A stretch of 64,000 nucleotides of DNA from Escherichia coli (GCF_030013595.1 NZ_CP122768.1), one strand, 5' to 3'. Positions 60,810 through 63,974 are shown, numbered from the stretch's first letter. Program-made: numbers and translations. The notes: generated from the sequence alone by a model not told the origin.

Positions 60810-61118
60810 ACTCACTTTGTTACCGGTAGCTGGATCATCACTACCGTGCCGCAAATGGTGGTGAACAGCATCAATTGTGGAATGAATGTTGCCGAAGCGA
60901 CCAATGCGCCTCGTTTCCACCATCAGTGGTTGCCGGACGAGCTGCGTGTTGAAAAGGGTTTAGTCCGGATACGCTCAAGCTGCTGGAAGCAAAAGGTCAG
61001 AAAGTGGCGCTGAATGAGGCGATGGGCAGCACGCAAAGCATTATGGTTGGGTCGGATGGTGAGTTGTACGGCGCATCCGACTCGCGCTTGGTGGATGATT
61101 TAACGGCGGGGTATTAAT
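60810..61118 (+). pseudogene. ggt: Gamma-glutamyltranspeptidase (ggt) paralog, 3' remnant with a frameshift
   Basis: Encodes ...IITTVPQMVVNSINCGMNVAEATNAPRFHHQWLPDELRVEKG, then after a -1 shift near 60958 continues ...SPDTLKLLEAKGQKVALNEAMGSTQSIMVGSDGELYGASDSRLVDDLTAGY-stop; no N-terminal region. Confidence 0.7.
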
Positions 61119-61156
61119 TGACATCCCCCGGCGCAATGTGCCGGGGGATAATGGTT

Positions 61157-62191
61157 TTATGCGGTCAATAATCGTCCGGGATTATCGATACAGAGTTTTT
61201 TGAGGATCGTTTTATCGACGCCGCGCTCCGCCAGATAGGCCAGAAAAACATCTGGAACAAATCCCCAGCCATTACCGCCATTTTTAGCCCACATTTGTTT
61301 AAGGAAGACATCGTGGCTGAGAACAAGCTGATCGGCGTATCCCAACTCAATGAGATGAGCGACGGCATCGGCAGTCTCCTGCACCCCTGGCGCTATTCCC
61401 TCTTTCGGGAAGGTAATGTCTAGGCCAATCATGTCGAATTCCAGCCAGACACCTTTATCAAGCATTTTCCGCTGATACGCCACGTCTTTTCCTGACGGAT
61501 CCGAGTGTGCGAGAGAGACTTTATTTGGCGAGACGCCCATTTCACCTAACACAATGTCGAGTACTTCATCACCGCGACGAAGCCAGCCCGGCATGTGAAT
61601 ATTCATCGCCACATGAGGATTGTTAATCTGTGCCAGCGAGGCAGCCCGCAAGCTGTTATGCTCGGCTTCGGTAAATGTCGGTGAGACACCTATTTCACCG
61701 ATCATTCCGGCACGAATATCCGTATCGCCAATCCCTTGATTCAATTCTTTATCGATCGTTGTCGCTAGTTCATCAACCGTTTTATGAATTCTCTGGCTTT
61801 CAAATTTTTCCAGGTAGGGACCGGAGGAAGCAACAATATTCAGACCTGTTTTTAATGCGACTTCTCGTAATGCCTGCGCATCTCGTCCGATAGACTCAGA
61901 CCCTGTGGCATCAACAATGGTGCGACCACCGAGCGAGATAAAGTTATTAATTTCGAAGATCACATCTTCAATAGGTTTGCGGTCCATATTATCAGCGCAG
62001 CAATAAGGATCGTGTTTTAATGCCCACTGGATTTCTGCCGTGACTTTTTTATCAACAAGCTGTTGTGAAAAAGGATAGCAAGGAGCATCCACAACAGAGG
62101 AAAGATCGTTGAACAGATGTTCATGAGGAAGTGTTAGCCCCATATCTTCACGGGCGACGGGGCCCGTCACAGTTTGTAGATAATCTTTCAT
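61157..62191 (-). CDS. Phosphotriesterase-related protein (Php-like amidohydrolase)
   Basis: 344-aa ORF with N-terminal HEH metal-binding motif (LTLPHEHLF). Confidence 0.75.
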   Translation of the reverse strand: MKDYLQTVTGPVAREDMGLTLPHEHLFNDLSSVVDAPCYPFSQQLVDKKVTAEIQWALKHDPYCCADNMDRKPIEDVIFEINNFISLGGRTIVDATGSESIGRDAQALREVALKTGLNIVASSGPYLEKFESQRIHKTVDELATTIDKELNQGIGDTDIRAGMIGEIGVSPTFTEAEHNSLRAASLAQINNPHVAMNIHMPGWLRRGDEVLDIVLGEMGVSPNKVSLAHSDPSGKDVAYQRKMLDKGVWLEFDMIGLDITFPKEGIAPGVQETADAVAHLIELGYADQLVLSHDVFLKQMWAKNGGNGWGFVPDVFLAYLAERGVDKTILKKLCIDNPGRLLTA

Positions 62192-62193
62192 GA

Positions 62194-63159
62194 TTATACC
62201 TCCATTTTCTTCATTGTTTTCGAGGCTCTGTATTCCGGAATAGTGGTAACAATTGCACCGACCAGTGCAAACAGTGTTCCGATGATCGTGACCAGATAAA
62301 CGGTATTGCCCAGCGATGGAATTAATACGTCAATCAATACTGATCCCAGTAACTGGCCCGCCGTTGAAGCAACCCCCAGCATCAGTAACCCCAGACCCCT
62401 GACCAAAATGGCCATTAAACCGATAGACATTAGTCCAAGCGGGCCGCCAAGATACATCCACCAGACATCTGGTAATTGAACAGTGACGTGCCCTAATGCG
62501 ACACGAATAGCTAGCGCTGTGCCTAAAACACAAAATCCAACGATGAAATTCCAGGTGATTGAAACCAGCATGGATCCCGTAGCTTCAGCTACTTTTGCAT
62601 TTCCAGCGGGCTGCCATCCTGCAAGCAAACCAGCTAAGAACGGAAGAATGGCAAGTAAAATGAAAGAGGTAGAATGCCACTGCGGTGACACAACAAAAAT
62701 CGTAGCAATAACCGCAAATAATGCACCGATGATGCGATAAGGGGTAAAGTATTTTTTCTCGTCGACACCGATACCAAAGCGATCGCAAAGTAAACCAGAC
62801 AGCAATAGCGCGGAGATCAGTGCGGTCTGAAACGTTGCGACCCCGAGTGCGCTGGCTGATGCGCCTTCAGAAAATACCACCATCGCTCCACAGAGACCGG
62901 CAAACCAGTTCCAGAGAGGAACTTTTCGGTTTTTAATCAGAGAAGGAATTGCCGCAAATTGTTGCCGGATTTCTTTTCGCGCCATAATAATAAAAAACAT
63001 CACGACTAAACCACTGGCAAAGGAGATAACTGCGCATGCATTACCGTCCTGTAACCAGTGACCTAATTGACCATTCACCGCTGATTGCATAGGGGAGAGC
63101 ATACCCGCAAGAATCGTGGCAAGCACCCATAAGGGAGTTGAGTACTTATTCTTTTTCAT
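62194..63159 (-). CDS. DMT-superfamily / DUF606-type inner membrane transporter
   Basis: 321-aa polytopic membrane ORF. Confidence 0.6.
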   Translation of the reverse strand: MKKNKYSTPLWVLATILAGMLSPMQSAVNGQLGHWLQDGNACAVISFASGLVVMFFIIMARKEIRQQFAAIPSLIKNRKVPLWNWFAGLCGAMVVFSEGASASALGVATFQTALISALLLSGLLCDRFGIGVDEKKYFTPYRIIGALFAVIATIFVVSPQWHSTSFILLAILPFLAGLLAGWQPAGNAKVAEATGSMLVSITWNFIVGFCVLGTALAIRVALGHVTVQLPDVWWMYLGGPLGLMSIGLMAILVRGLGLLMLGVASTAGQLLGSVLIDVLIPSLGNTVYLVTIIGTLFALVGAIVTTIPEYRASKTMKKMEV

Positions 63160-63215
63160 ACATCAATCCTTCTATTATAGTAAATGGAGTAACTGGTGTT
63201 ACCCCATTATTATTA

Positions 63216-63974
63216 TTATCTTGCAATATGAGTCAGTATATTTACCCACAACGCGGTATAGAACGGCCAGGACATAAACTGCTGTGTACCCCAGTGCGGT
63301 GAACAGTCACTCATAAAGCAGGCTATTTTCCCGTTGTGATAGTTACCAAAGACCAGTAATGGATCGTTGTTTATTGTTAATACCACCTCAGCATTTTCTT
63401 TAGCGATCGCCCGGTTATAACCTAGGAAAAAAGGATATTCAGAGAACCCTTTAATAACCGGATGGTCAGGTTGTGATGGCTGTGCAATAACACCCTCTGG
63501 TTTTTCGACACGATCGTCACCATCTAACATCGTAACCGGGAGCACATCAGCCAGAACTGTATTTTTATAATTGGCTTTTGCTTCAATTCCCATGAATGAG
63601 AGATAGCCGCCAATCATCAATAACCCACCACCGTTATTCACATATTCTTTAATCAGTTCGAGAGCGTTTGGTTTTATGCGAAGCTGATAAAAAGTATCAT
63701 TTTGTAGCAGGAAAGTATTACTACCAATATCACTAATAACGATGGCATCATATTGTTCTAACTGTGCCACATCTTCAGGGAAGGCAATTTGTACCGTATG
63801 TGCCGGCATATAGGTGACATCTACCTGACTATTTTTCAGACATTGGAGTAACCAGGTCGCACCTTCTTCATATTTACTTGAGGTAAAACTGTCATATCCT
63901 TTTGAATGAATCATATGAATATGCCAGGATTCTCCAATAAAGAGCACCTTTAGTGATTTTTTGGTGTTATTCAT
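63216..63974 (-). CDS. Class I glutamine amidotransferase-like (ThuA-like) protein
   Basis: 252-aa ORF; first gene of a three-gene minus-strand operon whose promoter lies near the window end. Confidence 0.5.
   Translation of the reverse strand: MNNTKKSLKVLFIGESWHIHMIHSKGYDSFTSSKYEEGATWLLQCLKNSQVDVTYMPAHTVQIAFPEDVAQLEQYDAIVISDIGSNTFLLQNDTFYQLRIKPNALELIKEYVNNGGGLLMIGGYLSFMGIEAKANYKNTVLADVLPVTMLDGDDRVEKPEGVIAQPSQPDHPVIKGFSEYPFFLGYNRAIAKENAEVVLTINNDPLLVFGNYHNGKIACFMSDCSPHWGTQQFMSWPFYTALWVNILTHIAR

What the first reader, a model, noticed from the sequence alone, without database searches (positions are those of the whole stretch)
60810..63974. Accessory metabolic module beside a decayed ggt paralog
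A minus-strand three-gene operon (class I amidotransferase-like, DUF606/DMT transporter, phosphotriesterase-related hydrolase) converges on a gamma-glutamyltranspeptidase remnant truncated by the ISL3 element. The gene set suggests an uptake and hydrolysis pathway for an amide or gamma-glutamyl-type compound, now partly disrupted. The substrate is unknown and the operon promoter lies at or beyond the window end.
Basis: inference. Interest (0 to 1): 0.45.

Follow-up and report, generated by a model that had tools for sequence, protein, structure and literature searches.

The report
Relocated rikA operon with ggt scrap
These three E. coli genes are the downstream part of the four-gene rikA (ribose-kinase) cluster already described in Salmonella, carried in a mobile island with a dead fragment of the neighbouring ggt gene; the cluster's substrate is still unknown, and ggt looks like a bystander, not a partner.

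Summary
Three intact minus-strand genes converge on a roughly 105-codon, frameshifted ggt 3' fragment cut by a degenerate ISL3: PTE-family hydrolase 61157-62191, double-YdcZ DMT transporter 62194-63159 and GATase1-like protein 63216-63974. The genes are E. coli orthologues of Salmonella STM3550, STM3549 and STM3548. The operon has a fourth, first gene, rikA (STM3547, a DeoR-HTH plus PfkB ribose kinase; McCormick et al. 2026). Only its last 13 nt lie in the window. In Salmonella and Citrobacter the same four genes sit beside the intact core ggt, between ggt and yhhY. The E. coli copy is a 4.47-kb collinear piece of such a locus, bounded by IS66 and ISL3 remnants. No E. coli genome of 5,426 joins a full-length ggt to it. 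Proteus, Providencia, Klebsiella, Budvicia and Succinivibrionaceae carry the cluster without ggt. So the ggt scrap is a positional hitchhiker, not a pathway member. Across 80 species the conserved core is a ribokinase-type PfkB plus the GATase1-like protein, with interchangeable hydrolases (PTE or M20) and transporters (DMT or ribose-type ABC). This points to catabolism of an unidentified ribose-type conjugate. In E. coli the cluster is often disrupted. It is already known and of modest interest.

The parts
59027..60799 (+). Degenerate ISL3-family insertion sequence with a broken transposase. It forms the right-hand boundary of the captured segment and truncates ggt.
   Evidence: Pfam Zn_ribbon_ISL3 and DDE_Tnp_ISL3 on three ORF pieces. 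NCBIfam ISL3 plus an internal IS21-like stretch. Imperfect terminal inverted repeats of about 50 bp at 59027-59077 and 60749-60799. RefSeq annotates it as a pseudogene with an internal stop.
60800..61117 (+). ggt 3' remnant covering roughly the last 105 of 580 codons. It is frameshifted and lacks the region of the catalytic Thr391.
   Evidence: PF01019 and NF007187 hits to GGT positions 478-531. Window 60824-61117 is 92.9% identical to K-12 ggt nt 1449-1743, with a 1-nt deletion near 60951. It is about 79% identical to Salmonella ggt in a collinear alignment that runs on into the PTE gene.
61123..61149 (.). GC-rich hairpin between the convergent ggt and PTE stop codons. It is a likely bidirectional terminator.
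   Evidence: The terminator scan found a stem of 12 pairs (9 G-C) and a 3-nt loop, followed by AATGGTTTTA. This is a consensus match only and was not tested.
61157..62191 (-). Phosphotriesterase-family (amidohydrolase superfamily) hydrolase. It is the orthologue of STM3550 and Pmi1525 and the fourth gene of the operon.
   Evidence: PF02126 at 161 bits. E=3e-174 over residues 1-344 to PDB 3RHG/4QSF. 85-86% aa identity to Salmonella and 74% to Proteus. Metal ligands H23, H25, E166, H199, H229 and D294 are conserved.
62194..63159 (-). DMT-superfamily membrane transporter made of two fused YdcZ/DUF606 repeats. It is the orthologue of STM3549 and the third gene of the operon.
   Evidence: PF04657, two stretches, E=1e-45. 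95% aa identity to Salmonella, 83-84% to Proteus and 77% to Succinivibrionaceae. It always lies between the GATase1-like and PTE genes.
63216..63974 (-). GATase1-like (PF07090) cytoplasmic protein. It is the orthologue of STM3548 and the second gene of the operon.
63988..64000 (-). The last four codons and stop codon of rikA (HTH_DeoR plus PfkB ribose kinase, orthologue of STM3547). rikA is the first gene of the operon, and the rest of it lies beyond the window end.
   Evidence: Window 63975-64000 is identical to L001 23476-23501. The reverse complement reads ...F T H stop, matching the RikA C-terminus. RefSeq annotates a PfkB-family carbohydrate kinase at this position in related strains.

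Best explanation
The region is the distal three-quarters of the four-gene operon rikA-STM3548-STM3549-STM3550: DeoR-HTH/ribokinase, GATase1-like protein, YdcZ-type DMT permease and PTE-family hydrolase.

Origin. In E. coli the operon exists only as a 4.47-kb fragment of an Escherichia-like ggt-yhhY chromosomal slot. The fragment sits between an IS66 remnant and a degenerate ISL3 in the island next to cobU. The ggt piece is the tail of the donor's neighbouring core gene and came along passively. It has no role in the pathway.

Function (inferred). The operon is a catabolic or salvage module for an unidentified ribose-type conjugate.
- The DMT permease imports the compound.
- The PTE-family metallo-hydrolase and the GATase1-like protein remove or open the non-sugar part.
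- RikA phosphorylates the released ribose, or a ribose-like product, to feed the pentose-phosphate pathway.
- RikA's DeoR-type HTH domain probably regulates the operon.

Shown versus inferred. The gene identities, the synteny, the origin and hitchhiker status of ggt, and RikA's ribose-kinase activity (literature, for the Salmonella orthologue) are shown. The substrate class, the direction of transport, the order of steps and the role of the GATase1-like protein are inferred.
For: Identity
- Orthology to the PDB entries Pmi1525 and STM3548.
- The Salmonella locus has the same order, HTH_DeoR-PfkB, GATase1_like, DMT_YdcZ, PTE, converging on a 580-aa ggt followed by yhhA and ugpQ.
- PMC13432705 describes this cluster, shows that RikA is a ribose kinase in vivo and in vitro, and lists Escherichia among the genera carrying it.

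Origin
- The E. coli segment is collinear with Salmonella and Citrobacter from 94 bp upstream of rikA to the ggt break point, at about 76% nt identity.
- The ggt piece is 92.9% identical to E. coli's own ggt.
- K-12 has the same flanks (ugpQ-yhhA-ggt ... yhhY-yhhX-yhhW) with a different insert in the slot.
- 0 of 5,426 E. coli genomes join a full-length ggt to the PTE gene.

ggt is not a partner
- Proteus, Providencia, Klebsiella, Budvicia and Succinivibrionaceae carry the cluster without ggt.
- ggt is present in 3 of 80 loci, against PfkB in 68 of 80.

Function
- The kinase partner is ribokinase-type in both phyla (TIGR02152: 285 bits for E. coli RikA, 309 bits for a Bacillus partner).
- In Bacilli the DMT is replaced by an ABC importer whose binding protein is closest to ribose-binding proteins. 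The hydrolase there is a PTE homologue (35-41% identity, same ligands) and/or ArgE/DapE-type M20 deacylases.
- LacI or DeoR regulators plus a binding-protein-dependent importer mark the module as catabolic.
- The HTH domain is conserved in 24 Enterobacterales RikA ORFs.
- pN/pS is 0.14-0.20 between E. coli alleles.
Against: - No substrate is known.
- From my memory of Xiang et al. 2015, Pmi1525 has only been shown to hydrolyse artificial p-nitrophenyl carboxylate and methylphosphonate esters. That paper was not available here.
- RikA's kcat/Km for ribose is about ten-fold below that of RbsK, and its authors suggest ribose may be an off-target substrate.
- Pfam labels YdcZ proteins as putative exporters.
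- McCormick et al. detected only the Met90-initiated kinase, without the HTH, in Salmonella. This weakens the autoregulation step.
- The GATase1-like protein has no demonstrated activity of any kind.
- In E. coli many copies are disrupted: the rikA Q81* allele in 219 of 1,967 records, IS2 in rikA, stops in the DMT gene, IS1 or IS3 in the GATase1-like gene, and about 830 genomes retaining only part of the cluster. The module may therefore not be in use in this species.
- The status of rikA in the window's own strain cannot be seen.
Confidence: 0.7

Rival explanations
1. The three genes plus ggt once formed a pathway for uptake and hydrolysis of an amide or gamma-glutamyl compound. The amidotransferase-like protein and GGT act on the gamma-glutamyl bond, and the pathway is now crippled by the loss of ggt.
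For: - The PTE gene and ggt converge and share a terminator-like hairpin.
- The same adjacency exists in Salmonella and Citrobacter.
Against: - In Salmonella and Citrobacter the adjacent ggt is the single core gene in its conserved ugpQ-yhhA-ggt context. E. coli K-12 has this same context without the cluster.
- Most lineages with the cluster have no ggt nearby: 3 of 80 loci do.
- GGT is periplasmic (established knowledge), whereas STM3548 is cytoplasmic.
- The GATase1-like family shows no profile similarity to a true GATase, HisH.
- It has no cysteine in the invariant GGLLMIGGYLSF segment. I take this, from general knowledge of the fold, to be where the nucleophile elbow would lie.
- The conserved partner is a ribokinase, not a gamma-glutamyl enzyme.
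Confidence: 0.04
2. A detoxification module. The PTE-family enzyme hydrolyses xenobiotic esters or organophosphonates, and the YdcZ-type DMT protein exports the products. The kinase and the GATase1-like protein would be regulators or accessory proteins.
For: - Pmi1525, the 74%-identical orthologue, is cited as a metal-dependent esterase. Its paper is titled as a methylphosphonate esterase (reference list).
- Pfam names PF04657 a 'putative inner membrane exporter'.
Against: - In Firmicutes the same GATase1-like, ribokinase and PTE set is linked to a binding-protein-dependent ABC importer of the ribose type and to LacI repressors. This is a catabolic signature.
- Chromosomal rikA alone supports growth of Salmonella on ribose, so it is a working metabolic kinase.
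- The known activities of Pmi1525 are on artificial p-nitrophenyl esters (from memory; the paper is not held).
Confidence: 0.1
3. In E. coli the segment is functionless cargo, a decaying relic kept only by linkage to the island. The intact reading frames in this window would then reflect slow decay, not use.
For: - Independent disruptions are seen across strains: rikA Q81* in 219 of 1,967 records, IS2 in rikA plus a stop in the DMT gene, frameshifts in rikA and the DMT gene, and IS1 or IS3 in the GATase1-like gene.
- Only 1,906 of the 2,739 genomes with any trace of the cluster retain at least 80% of the three genes.
- The segment is bounded by dead IS elements.
Against: - pN/pS is 0.14-0.20 between the window and three other alleles, at pS of 1-2%. 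This indicates past purifying selection within E. coli, although it rests on only 10-16 SNPs.
- All four genes are intact in ST131.
- The Q81* stop lies upstream of Met90, from which an active kinase is made in Salmonella.
- This rival is compatible with the best explanation for the cluster's ancestral function.
Confidence: 0.16

Closest known systems
Salmonella Typhimurium rikA (STM3547)-STM3548-STM3549-STM3550 cluster (McCormick, Jabbar and Escalante-Semerena, Mol Microbiol 2026, PMC13432705)
   Same: - Same four genes in the same order and orientation.
- Protein identities are 82-95%: GATase1-like 83%, PTE 85-86%, DMT 95%, RikA about 82%.
- DNA is collinear from 94 bp upstream of rikA into ggt.
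- The paper lists Escherichia among the genera with the cluster.
   Different: - In Salmonella the cluster sits in the core ggt-yhhY slot beside an intact ggt.
- In E. coli it sits in an IS-bounded island near cobU with only a ggt scrap. No E. coli genome has the native arrangement.
- Many E. coli copies are disrupted.
Pmi1525 of Proteus mirabilis (PDB 3RHG, 4QSF; Xiang et al., Biochemistry 2015, 'methylphosphonate esterase')
   Same: - It is the orthologue of the window's PTE protein: E=3e-174 over the full length and 74% identity.
- It has the same Glu-bridged binuclear-metal ligand set.
- It has the same gene neighbourhood in Proteus (L019).
   Different: Only promiscuous in-vitro activities on artificial esters are known for Pmi1525 (from memory). 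The physiological substrate is unknown, so it does not define the function here.
STM3548 (PDB 2GK3) and STM1381 (PDB 3SOZ), GATase1-like proteins of family PF07090
   Same: - The window protein matches 2GK3 at E=1e-145 and 3SOZ at E=2e-110.
   Different: These are structural-genomics entries with no assigned activity. STM1381 belongs to a paralogous set within SPI-2 (orf408/orf245) that pairs with an alpha/beta-hydrolase and an amino-acid permease instead of PTE and DMT (L047).
rbs (ribose) utilisation system: RbsB-dependent ABC importer plus ribokinase RbsK
   Same: - The kinase partner is ribokinase-type, and RikA phosphorylates ribose.
- In Bacilli the linked binding protein is closest to ribose-binding proteins.
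   Different: - The module adds two proteins with no counterpart in rbs, a GATase1-like protein and a metallo-hydrolase.
- In Enterobacterales it uses a DMT permease.
- RikA is about ten-fold less efficient on ribose than RbsK, which suggests a modified-ribose substrate.
E. coli gamma-glutamyltransferase (ggt)
   Same: The remnant is 92.9% identical in nucleotides to the last 99 codons of K-12 ggt.
   Different: - It covers about 18% of the gene and is frameshifted.
- It lacks the large subunit and the catalytic N-terminus of the small subunit.
- It is a second, dead copy beside the intact core ggt that is found in 5,423-5,425 of 5,426 genomes.

Membership tests
rikA-STM3548-STM3549-STM3550 cluster | Four co-directional genes in the order HTH/PfkB kinase, GATase1_like, DMT_YdcZ, PTE | tested here: met
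   The last three genes and the final 13 nt of rikA are in the window. The full four-gene order is seen in E. coli strains 99-100% identical over this segment, and in Salmonella, Citrobacter, Klebsiella, Proteus, Providencia and Budvicia.
rikA-STM3548-STM3549-STM3550 cluster | Orthology of each protein to the Salmonella proteins | tested here: met
   GATase1-like 83%, PTE 85-86%, DMT 95%, RikA about 82%. DNA is collinear over 4.47 kb.
rikA-STM3548-STM3549-STM3550 cluster | Ribose kinase activity of the first gene product | not testable with these tools
   Shown for Salmonella RikA in PMC13432705. The E. coli orthologue scores 285 bits against TIGR02152 ribokinase, just below its cut-off of 299.65. 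The window's own rikA sequence is not visible.
Phosphotriesterase family (PF02126, amidohydrolase superfamily) | Pfam score above the gathering threshold over the full-length domain | tested here: met
   161.2 bits against a cut-off of 22.4, covering residues 14-342.
Phosphotriesterase family (PF02126, amidohydrolase superfamily) | Binuclear-metal ligand set: HxH, a bridging Glu or carboxylated Lys, His, His, Asp | tested here: met
   H23, H25, E166, H199, H229 and D294 are present. The same pattern is conserved in nearly all co-clustered homologues.
Phosphotriesterase family (PF02126, amidohydrolase superfamily) | Organophosphate triesterase activity as the physiological role | not testable with these tools
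   NCBIfam equivalogs for OPH (82 bits against 500) and PHP (108 bits against 486) are far below their cut-offs. It is a family member, but not an OPH or PHP equivalog.
Class I glutamine amidotransferase (catalytic) | GATase1 alpha/beta fold | tested here: met
Class I glutamine amidotransferase (catalytic) | Cys-His-Glu triad with the cysteine in a nucleophile elbow | tested here: inconclusive
   The invariant GGLLMIGGYLSF segment contains no cysteine. From general knowledge of the fold, this is where I would place the nucleophile elbow. The only invariant Cys is in D223-C224-x-P-H227-W228. There is no profile similarity to HisH, probability 0.3%. Residues were not superposed on a true GATase, so the absence of a triad is inferred, not shown.
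Class I glutamine amidotransferase (catalytic) | An associated synthase or acceptor domain or subunit that uses the ammonia | tested here: not met
   No synthase partner appears in any of the roughly 80 neighbourhoods. The partners are a kinase, hydrolases and transporters.
DMT superfamily, YdcZ/DUF606 type | Two PF04657 repeats, giving a 10-TMS-type architecture by duplication | tested here: met
   Two stretches match at E=1e-45. The two halves align with each other. Direction of transport was not tested.
Functional gamma-glutamyltransferase | Full-length precursor of about 580 aa with the autoprocessing and catalytic Thr and both subunits | tested here: not met
   Only codons of about 477-581 are present, and there is a 1-nt deletion. 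RefSeq flags it as an incomplete, frameshifted pseudogene.
ISL3-family insertion sequence | Terminal inverted repeats plus an ISL3 transposase (zinc ribbon and DDE domains) | tested here: met
   Inverted repeats lie at 59027-59077 and 60749-60799. The domains are found on three ORF fragments. The transposase is broken, so the element is not autonomous.

The most novel reading that the evidence does not exclude
The strictly conserved pair of a ribokinase-type PfkB and a PF07090 GATase1-like protein may mark an undiscovered catabolic route for a natural ribose conjugate. The pair is about 60% identical between Enterobacterales and Firmicutes. It travels with swappable metallo-hydrolases (PTE, ArgE/DapE-type or carbamoylase-type M20, alpha/beta-hydrolase) and swappable importers (DMT, ribose-type ABC, APC permease). 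Candidate substrates include an O-acyl or aminoacyl ribose, an N-ribosyl amide or ureide derived from damaged or modified nucleosides, or a ribosyl phosphonate ester. In this reading the GATase1-like protein is a new kind of hydrolase or lyase acting on the ribosyl linkage, and the E. coli island copy is one decaying instance of that pathway.
Probability: 0.3. Interest if true: 0.5.

Novelty: already known. Interest (0 to 1): 0.2.

Why it matters
Practical value. RefSeq annotates these genes as 'glutamine amidotransferase' and 'phosphotriesterase-related protein' next to a 'gamma-glutamyltransferase' pseudogene. That wording invites a gamma-glutamyl reading. The comparative data show the ggt piece is only a positional fossil. 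It records where the cluster once sat: the ggt-yhhY slot of an Escherichia-like chromosome.

Open question. The substrate of the rikA cluster is unsolved. McCormick et al. 2026 left it open.

What the cross-phylum survey adds:
- The invariant core is ribokinase plus the GATase1-like protein.
- The transporter and the hydrolase are interchangeable modules.
- The ABC version uses a ribose-type binding protein.

This narrows the search to ribose-type conjugates and gives a concrete set of organisms for testing: Salmonella, Proteus, and Neobacillus or Paenibacillus. For E. coli itself the cluster is present in about a third of genomes and often broken, so its physiological importance there is probably small.

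Tried and rejected
- Looked for any E. coli genome with the native arrangement, using a chimeric query of 1,000 nt of K-12 ggt joined to the PTE-side sequence. None of 5,426 genomes has it.
- Tried to read three papers: Pmi1525 (Xiang 2015, PMC4477287), its companion paper (Xiang 2014, PMC4045322) and the STM3548 structure paper (Petrova 2007, PMC2792014). None is held. Statements about their content rest on titles in reference lists and on my memory.
- Literature searches for PF07090, GATase1_like and DUF1355 and for ThuA function gave nothing useful. The SPI-2 orf245/orf408 search only confirmed that the names exist.
- The hhalign comparison of the GATase1-like family with HisH gave no alignment. 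The triad question could therefore not be settled by sequence.
- The default inverted-repeat search missed the ISL3 ends. They were recovered with a pattern search and local alignment.
- The promoter scan found no more sigma-70-like sites than in shuffled sequence. I make no claim for an internal promoter in the 56-bp gap between the GATase1-like and DMT genes.
- The window is not strain O103:H2 12009 outside this segment. No strain in the collection matches the last 24.5 kb exactly; the best is 99.7-99.8%. The rikA allele of the window's own strain therefore remains unknown.
- I considered a ribose-1-methylphosphonate link (C-P lyase intermediates) because Pmi1525 hydrolyses methylphosphonate esters. 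There is no supporting evidence here, so it is kept only as one candidate in the novel case.

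
Full report
**What is in the window**

The ORF list shows three tightly packed minus-strand genes.

- 61157-62191, 344 aa: Pfam PTE, PF02126, 161 bits.
- 62194-63159, 321 aa: two DMT_YdcZ/PF04657 repeats.
- 63216-63974, 252 aa: GATase1_like, PF07090, 375 bits.

On the plus strand a short ORF at 60789-61013 hits gamma-glutamyltranspeptidase (PF01019; NF007187 positions 478-531).

Aligned with K-12 ggt, window 60824-61117 corresponds to nt 1449-1743 (codons 483-581). Identity is 92.9%, with a 1-nt deletion near 60951. Weaker similarity reaches back to about 60800.

Immediately to the left is a degenerate ISL3 element. Its transposase is split into three ORF pieces. Its imperfect terminal inverted repeats of about 50 bp lie at 59027-59077 and 60749-60799. 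A strong hairpin at 61123-61149 separates the convergent ggt and PTE stops.

**The operon has a fourth gene**

The window ends 26 nt beyond the start codon of the GATase1-like gene. Those 26 nt contain the stop codon and last four codons of another gene.

- In E. coli strains identical or nearly identical over this segment, the next gene is a 404-aa 'PfkB family carbohydrate kinase'.
- It has an N-terminal HTH_DeoR domain and a ribokinase-like domain.
- Further upstream come 94 bp of conserved sequence and then an IS66 remnant.

**It is a known cluster**

- The PTE protein is the full-length orthologue of Pmi1525 from Proteus mirabilis (PDB 3RHG/4QSF, E=3e-174).
- The GATase1-like protein is the orthologue of STM3548 (PDB 2GK3, E=1e-145).
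- A 2026 paper (PMC13432705) names STM3547 RikA and shows in vivo and in vitro that it is a ribose kinase.
- That paper describes the STM3547-STM3550 cluster as conserved in Citrobacter, Escherichia, Budvicia and Proteus.
- It states that the function of the other three genes, and the true substrate, are unknown.
- The window therefore carries the E. coli orthologues of STM3548, STM3549 and STM3550.

**What the ggt fragment is**

In Salmonella the gene order is yhhY, rikA, STM3548, STM3549, STM3550, then a convergent full-length ggt (580 aa), yhhA and ugpQ. Citrobacter has the same order.

E. coli K-12 has the same flanks, ugpBAECQ-yhhA-ggt ... yhhY-yhhX-yhhW-gntR. The slot between ggt and yhhY there holds yrhB, yrhD, IS1, yrhA and a tssD-like gene instead.

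- The E. coli island segment is collinear with the Salmonella and Citrobacter loci over 4.47 kb at about 76% identity. The match runs from 94 bp upstream of rikA, through all four genes and the intergenic hairpin, into ggt, and stops where ISL3 begins.
- The ggt part is about 79% identical to Salmonella ggt but 92.9% identical to E. coli's own ggt. The source was therefore an Escherichia-like chromosome, not Salmonella.
- A chimeric query found no E. coli genome among 5,426 in which a full-length ggt is joined to the PTE gene.
- No other Escherichia species appeared among the best 80 of 415 loci from the species-representative scan.

The simplest reading is that a piece of a ggt-yhhY slot was captured between two insertion sequences in the island next to cobU. 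The tail of the neighbouring core gene came with it.

**Does ggt belong to the module?**

I surveyed 80 species-representative loci around GATase1-like homologues. I clustered the neighbouring ORFs and annotated representatives.

Gene orders found:

| Lineage | Gene order around the GATase1-like gene (GAT) |
|---|---|
| Salmonella, Citrobacter, Klebsiella, Budvicia, Providencia, Proteus | HTH-PfkB (402-406 aa), GAT, DMT, PTE |
| Succinivibrionaceae | AraC-like regulator (divergent), GAT, DMT, PTE, PfkB |
| Bacilli, type 1 | LacI, PfkB, GAT, M20, ribose-type ABC importer, BtpA, PfkB, M20 |
| Bacilli, type 2 | LacI, PfkB, GAT, BtpA, PfkB, ABC importer, PTE |
| Paenibacillus | ABC importer, ureidoglycolate-lyase-like protein, M20, GAT, sometimes PfkB |
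| SPI-2-type paralogue | HTH-PfkB (408-430 aa), GAT, alpha/beta-hydrolase, amino-acid permease |

Counts over the 80 loci:

| Neighbour within 10 kb | Loci |
|---|---|
| PfkB kinase | 68 |
| PTE or M20 hydrolase | 69 |
| DMT or ABC transporter | 69 |
| PTE | 30 |
| DMT | 24 |
| ggt | 3 |

The three loci with ggt are Salmonella and Citrobacter, where it is the core gene.

**What the module probably does**

Shown:
- RikA phosphorylates ribose, and chromosomal rikA alone supports growth of Salmonella on ribose.
- The PTE protein keeps the full binuclear-metal ligand set: H23, H25, E166, H199, H229 and D294.
- Its orthologue Pmi1525 is cited as a metal-dependent esterase.

Comparative evidence:
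- The kinase partner is ribokinase-type in both phyla (TIGR02152: 285 and 309 bits).
- The binding protein of the Firmicute ABC system is closest to ribose-binding proteins (2IOY, 7E7M, RbsB).
- The M20 partners are ArgE/DapE-type deacylases. In a few loci they are allantoate-amidohydrolase or carbamoylase-type enzymes.
- A binding-protein-dependent importer and LacI or DeoR repressors mark a catabolic system. By functional replacement, the DMT protein is most likely an importer too. This is an inference, and Pfam's label says 'exporter'.

The GATase1-like protein:
- It is extraordinarily conserved, with 83 invariant positions in 21 sequences and about 60% identity between E. coli and Paenibacillus.
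- It shows no profile similarity to HisH.
- It has no cysteine in the invariant GGLLMIGGYLSF segment, which is where I would place the nucleophile elbow.
- It has no synthase partner.
- 'Glutamine amidotransferase' is therefore a fold label, not a function.

My best model is uptake of a ribose-type conjugate, removal or opening of the non-sugar part by the metallo-hydrolase and the GATase1-like protein, and phosphorylation of the released ribose by RikA. The substrate is unknown, and this part is inference.

**Regulation**

McCormick et al. detected only a Met90-initiated kinase in Salmonella. Across 24 Enterobacterales orthologues, however:
- The 404-406-codon frame is always open.
- The HTH domain is 58-83% identical to the E. 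coli protein, against 65-83% for the kinase domain.
- Met90 is replaced by Ala or Val in Proteus and Providencia.

The fused HTH-kinase is therefore the conserved product and a plausible autoregulator. It would take the place of the separate LacI repressor seen in Bacilli.

**State of the cluster in E. coli**

- 2,739 of 5,426 complete genomes hold some part of the three genes. 1,906 hold at least 80% of them.
- Disruptions are frequent and independent:
  - rikA Q81* in 219 of 1,967 records
  - IS2 in rikA plus a stop in the DMT gene
  - frameshifts in rikA and the DMT gene
  - IS1 or IS3 in the GATase1-like gene, and large deletions leaving only 852 nt or less of the PTE gene
- Alleles from different lineages differ mostly synonymously: pN/pS is 0.14-0.20 at pS of 1-2%, on few SNPs.
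- ST131 keeps all four genes intact.
- The island copy is thus old within E. coli. It was under purifying selection at least in the past and is dispensable in many lineages.
- The Q81* stop lies upstream of Met90 and may leave the kinase expressible. PGAP annotates a 'ribokinase' there in one strain.
- The window's strain is not in the collection, so its rikA allele is unknown.

**Verdict**

The features are real and correctly located. The module is an accessory catabolic operon, but it is the already described rikA cluster, with four genes, not three. It is linked to ribose-type chemistry, not gamma-glutamyl chemistry. The ggt remnant is a positional hitchhiker that records the cluster's former chromosomal address. 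Novelty is low. The residual interest lies in the unsolved substrate of a widely distributed pairing of a ribokinase with a GATase1-like protein.

Noticed in passing
window 59522-60505: The largest ORF piece of the ISL3 pseudo-transposase contains an internal stretch of about 90 aa (residues 171-262). It matches the N-terminal HTH region of IS21 IstA (NF033546, E=4e-13). The dead IS therefore looks chimeric.
   Followed up: no
window 62194-63159, compared with L004, L019, L028 and others: The DMT/YdcZ membrane protein is the most conserved protein of the cluster. It is 95% identical to Salmonella, 83-84% to Proteus and 77% to Succinivibrionaceae. The PTE protein scores 85/74/56-60% and the GATase1-like protein 83/71/64-66%. 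This is unusual for a transporter.
   Followed up: partly
beyond the window end; L002 14829-16043 (-), L001 23489-24703 (-): The DeoR-type HTH domain of RikA is conserved in 24 Enterobacterales ORFs, and Met90 is absent in Proteus and Providencia. This argues that the fused HTH-kinase is the normal product, despite the report that Salmonella RikA starts at Met90. An E. coli Q81* allele (219 of 1,967 records) would separate the two domains.
   Followed up: partly
L090 (K-12) 7333-10513 compared with L004 (Salmonella) 6775-10816: The chromosomal slot between ggt and yhhY is variable. K-12 holds yrhB, yrhD, IS1, yrhA and a tssD/Hcp-like gene (yhhZ) there, whereas Salmonella and Citrobacter hold the rikA cluster.
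   Followed up: partly
L005 and L017 (Klebsiella huaxiensis and K. spallanzanii), about 4 kb upstream of the rikA cluster: These loci have a second PTE-family gene, only 27% identical and with a Lys-type bridging ligand. In L005 it sits next to creatininase-family, PTS IIA/IIB/IIC and SIS-domain genes. This is another orphan sugar-linked PTE module.
   Followed up: no
window 57181-58842: An 'inovirus Gp2 family' protein and two overlapping zinc-ribbon proteins lie just left of the ISL3. They are retained in every island variant examined (O103, ST131, B19374, CE0011b).
   Followed up: no
L054, L058, L067-L068, L077, L080-L081, L084-L086 (Paenibacillus and Cohnella); L038, L044, L056, L069 (Sporosarcina, Oceanobacillus, Amphibacillus): Some Firmicute GATase1-like loci carry a weak ureidoglycolate-lyase-like protein (PF04115, E=4e-12). 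Others carry an allantoate-amidohydrolase or carbamoylase-type M20 enzyme (NF006771, 448 bits). This hints at ureido or N-carbamoyl chemistry in at least part of the family.
   Followed up: partly
window 1-39500 (compared with L088): The rest of the window is core chromosome: colanic-acid genes, an O-antigen cluster different from that of O103, gnd/ugd, the his operon, and yeeZ through sbcB. It is 95-98% identical to strain 12009. No strain in the collection matches the last 24.5 kb of the window exactly (best 99.7-99.8%).
   Followed up: partly
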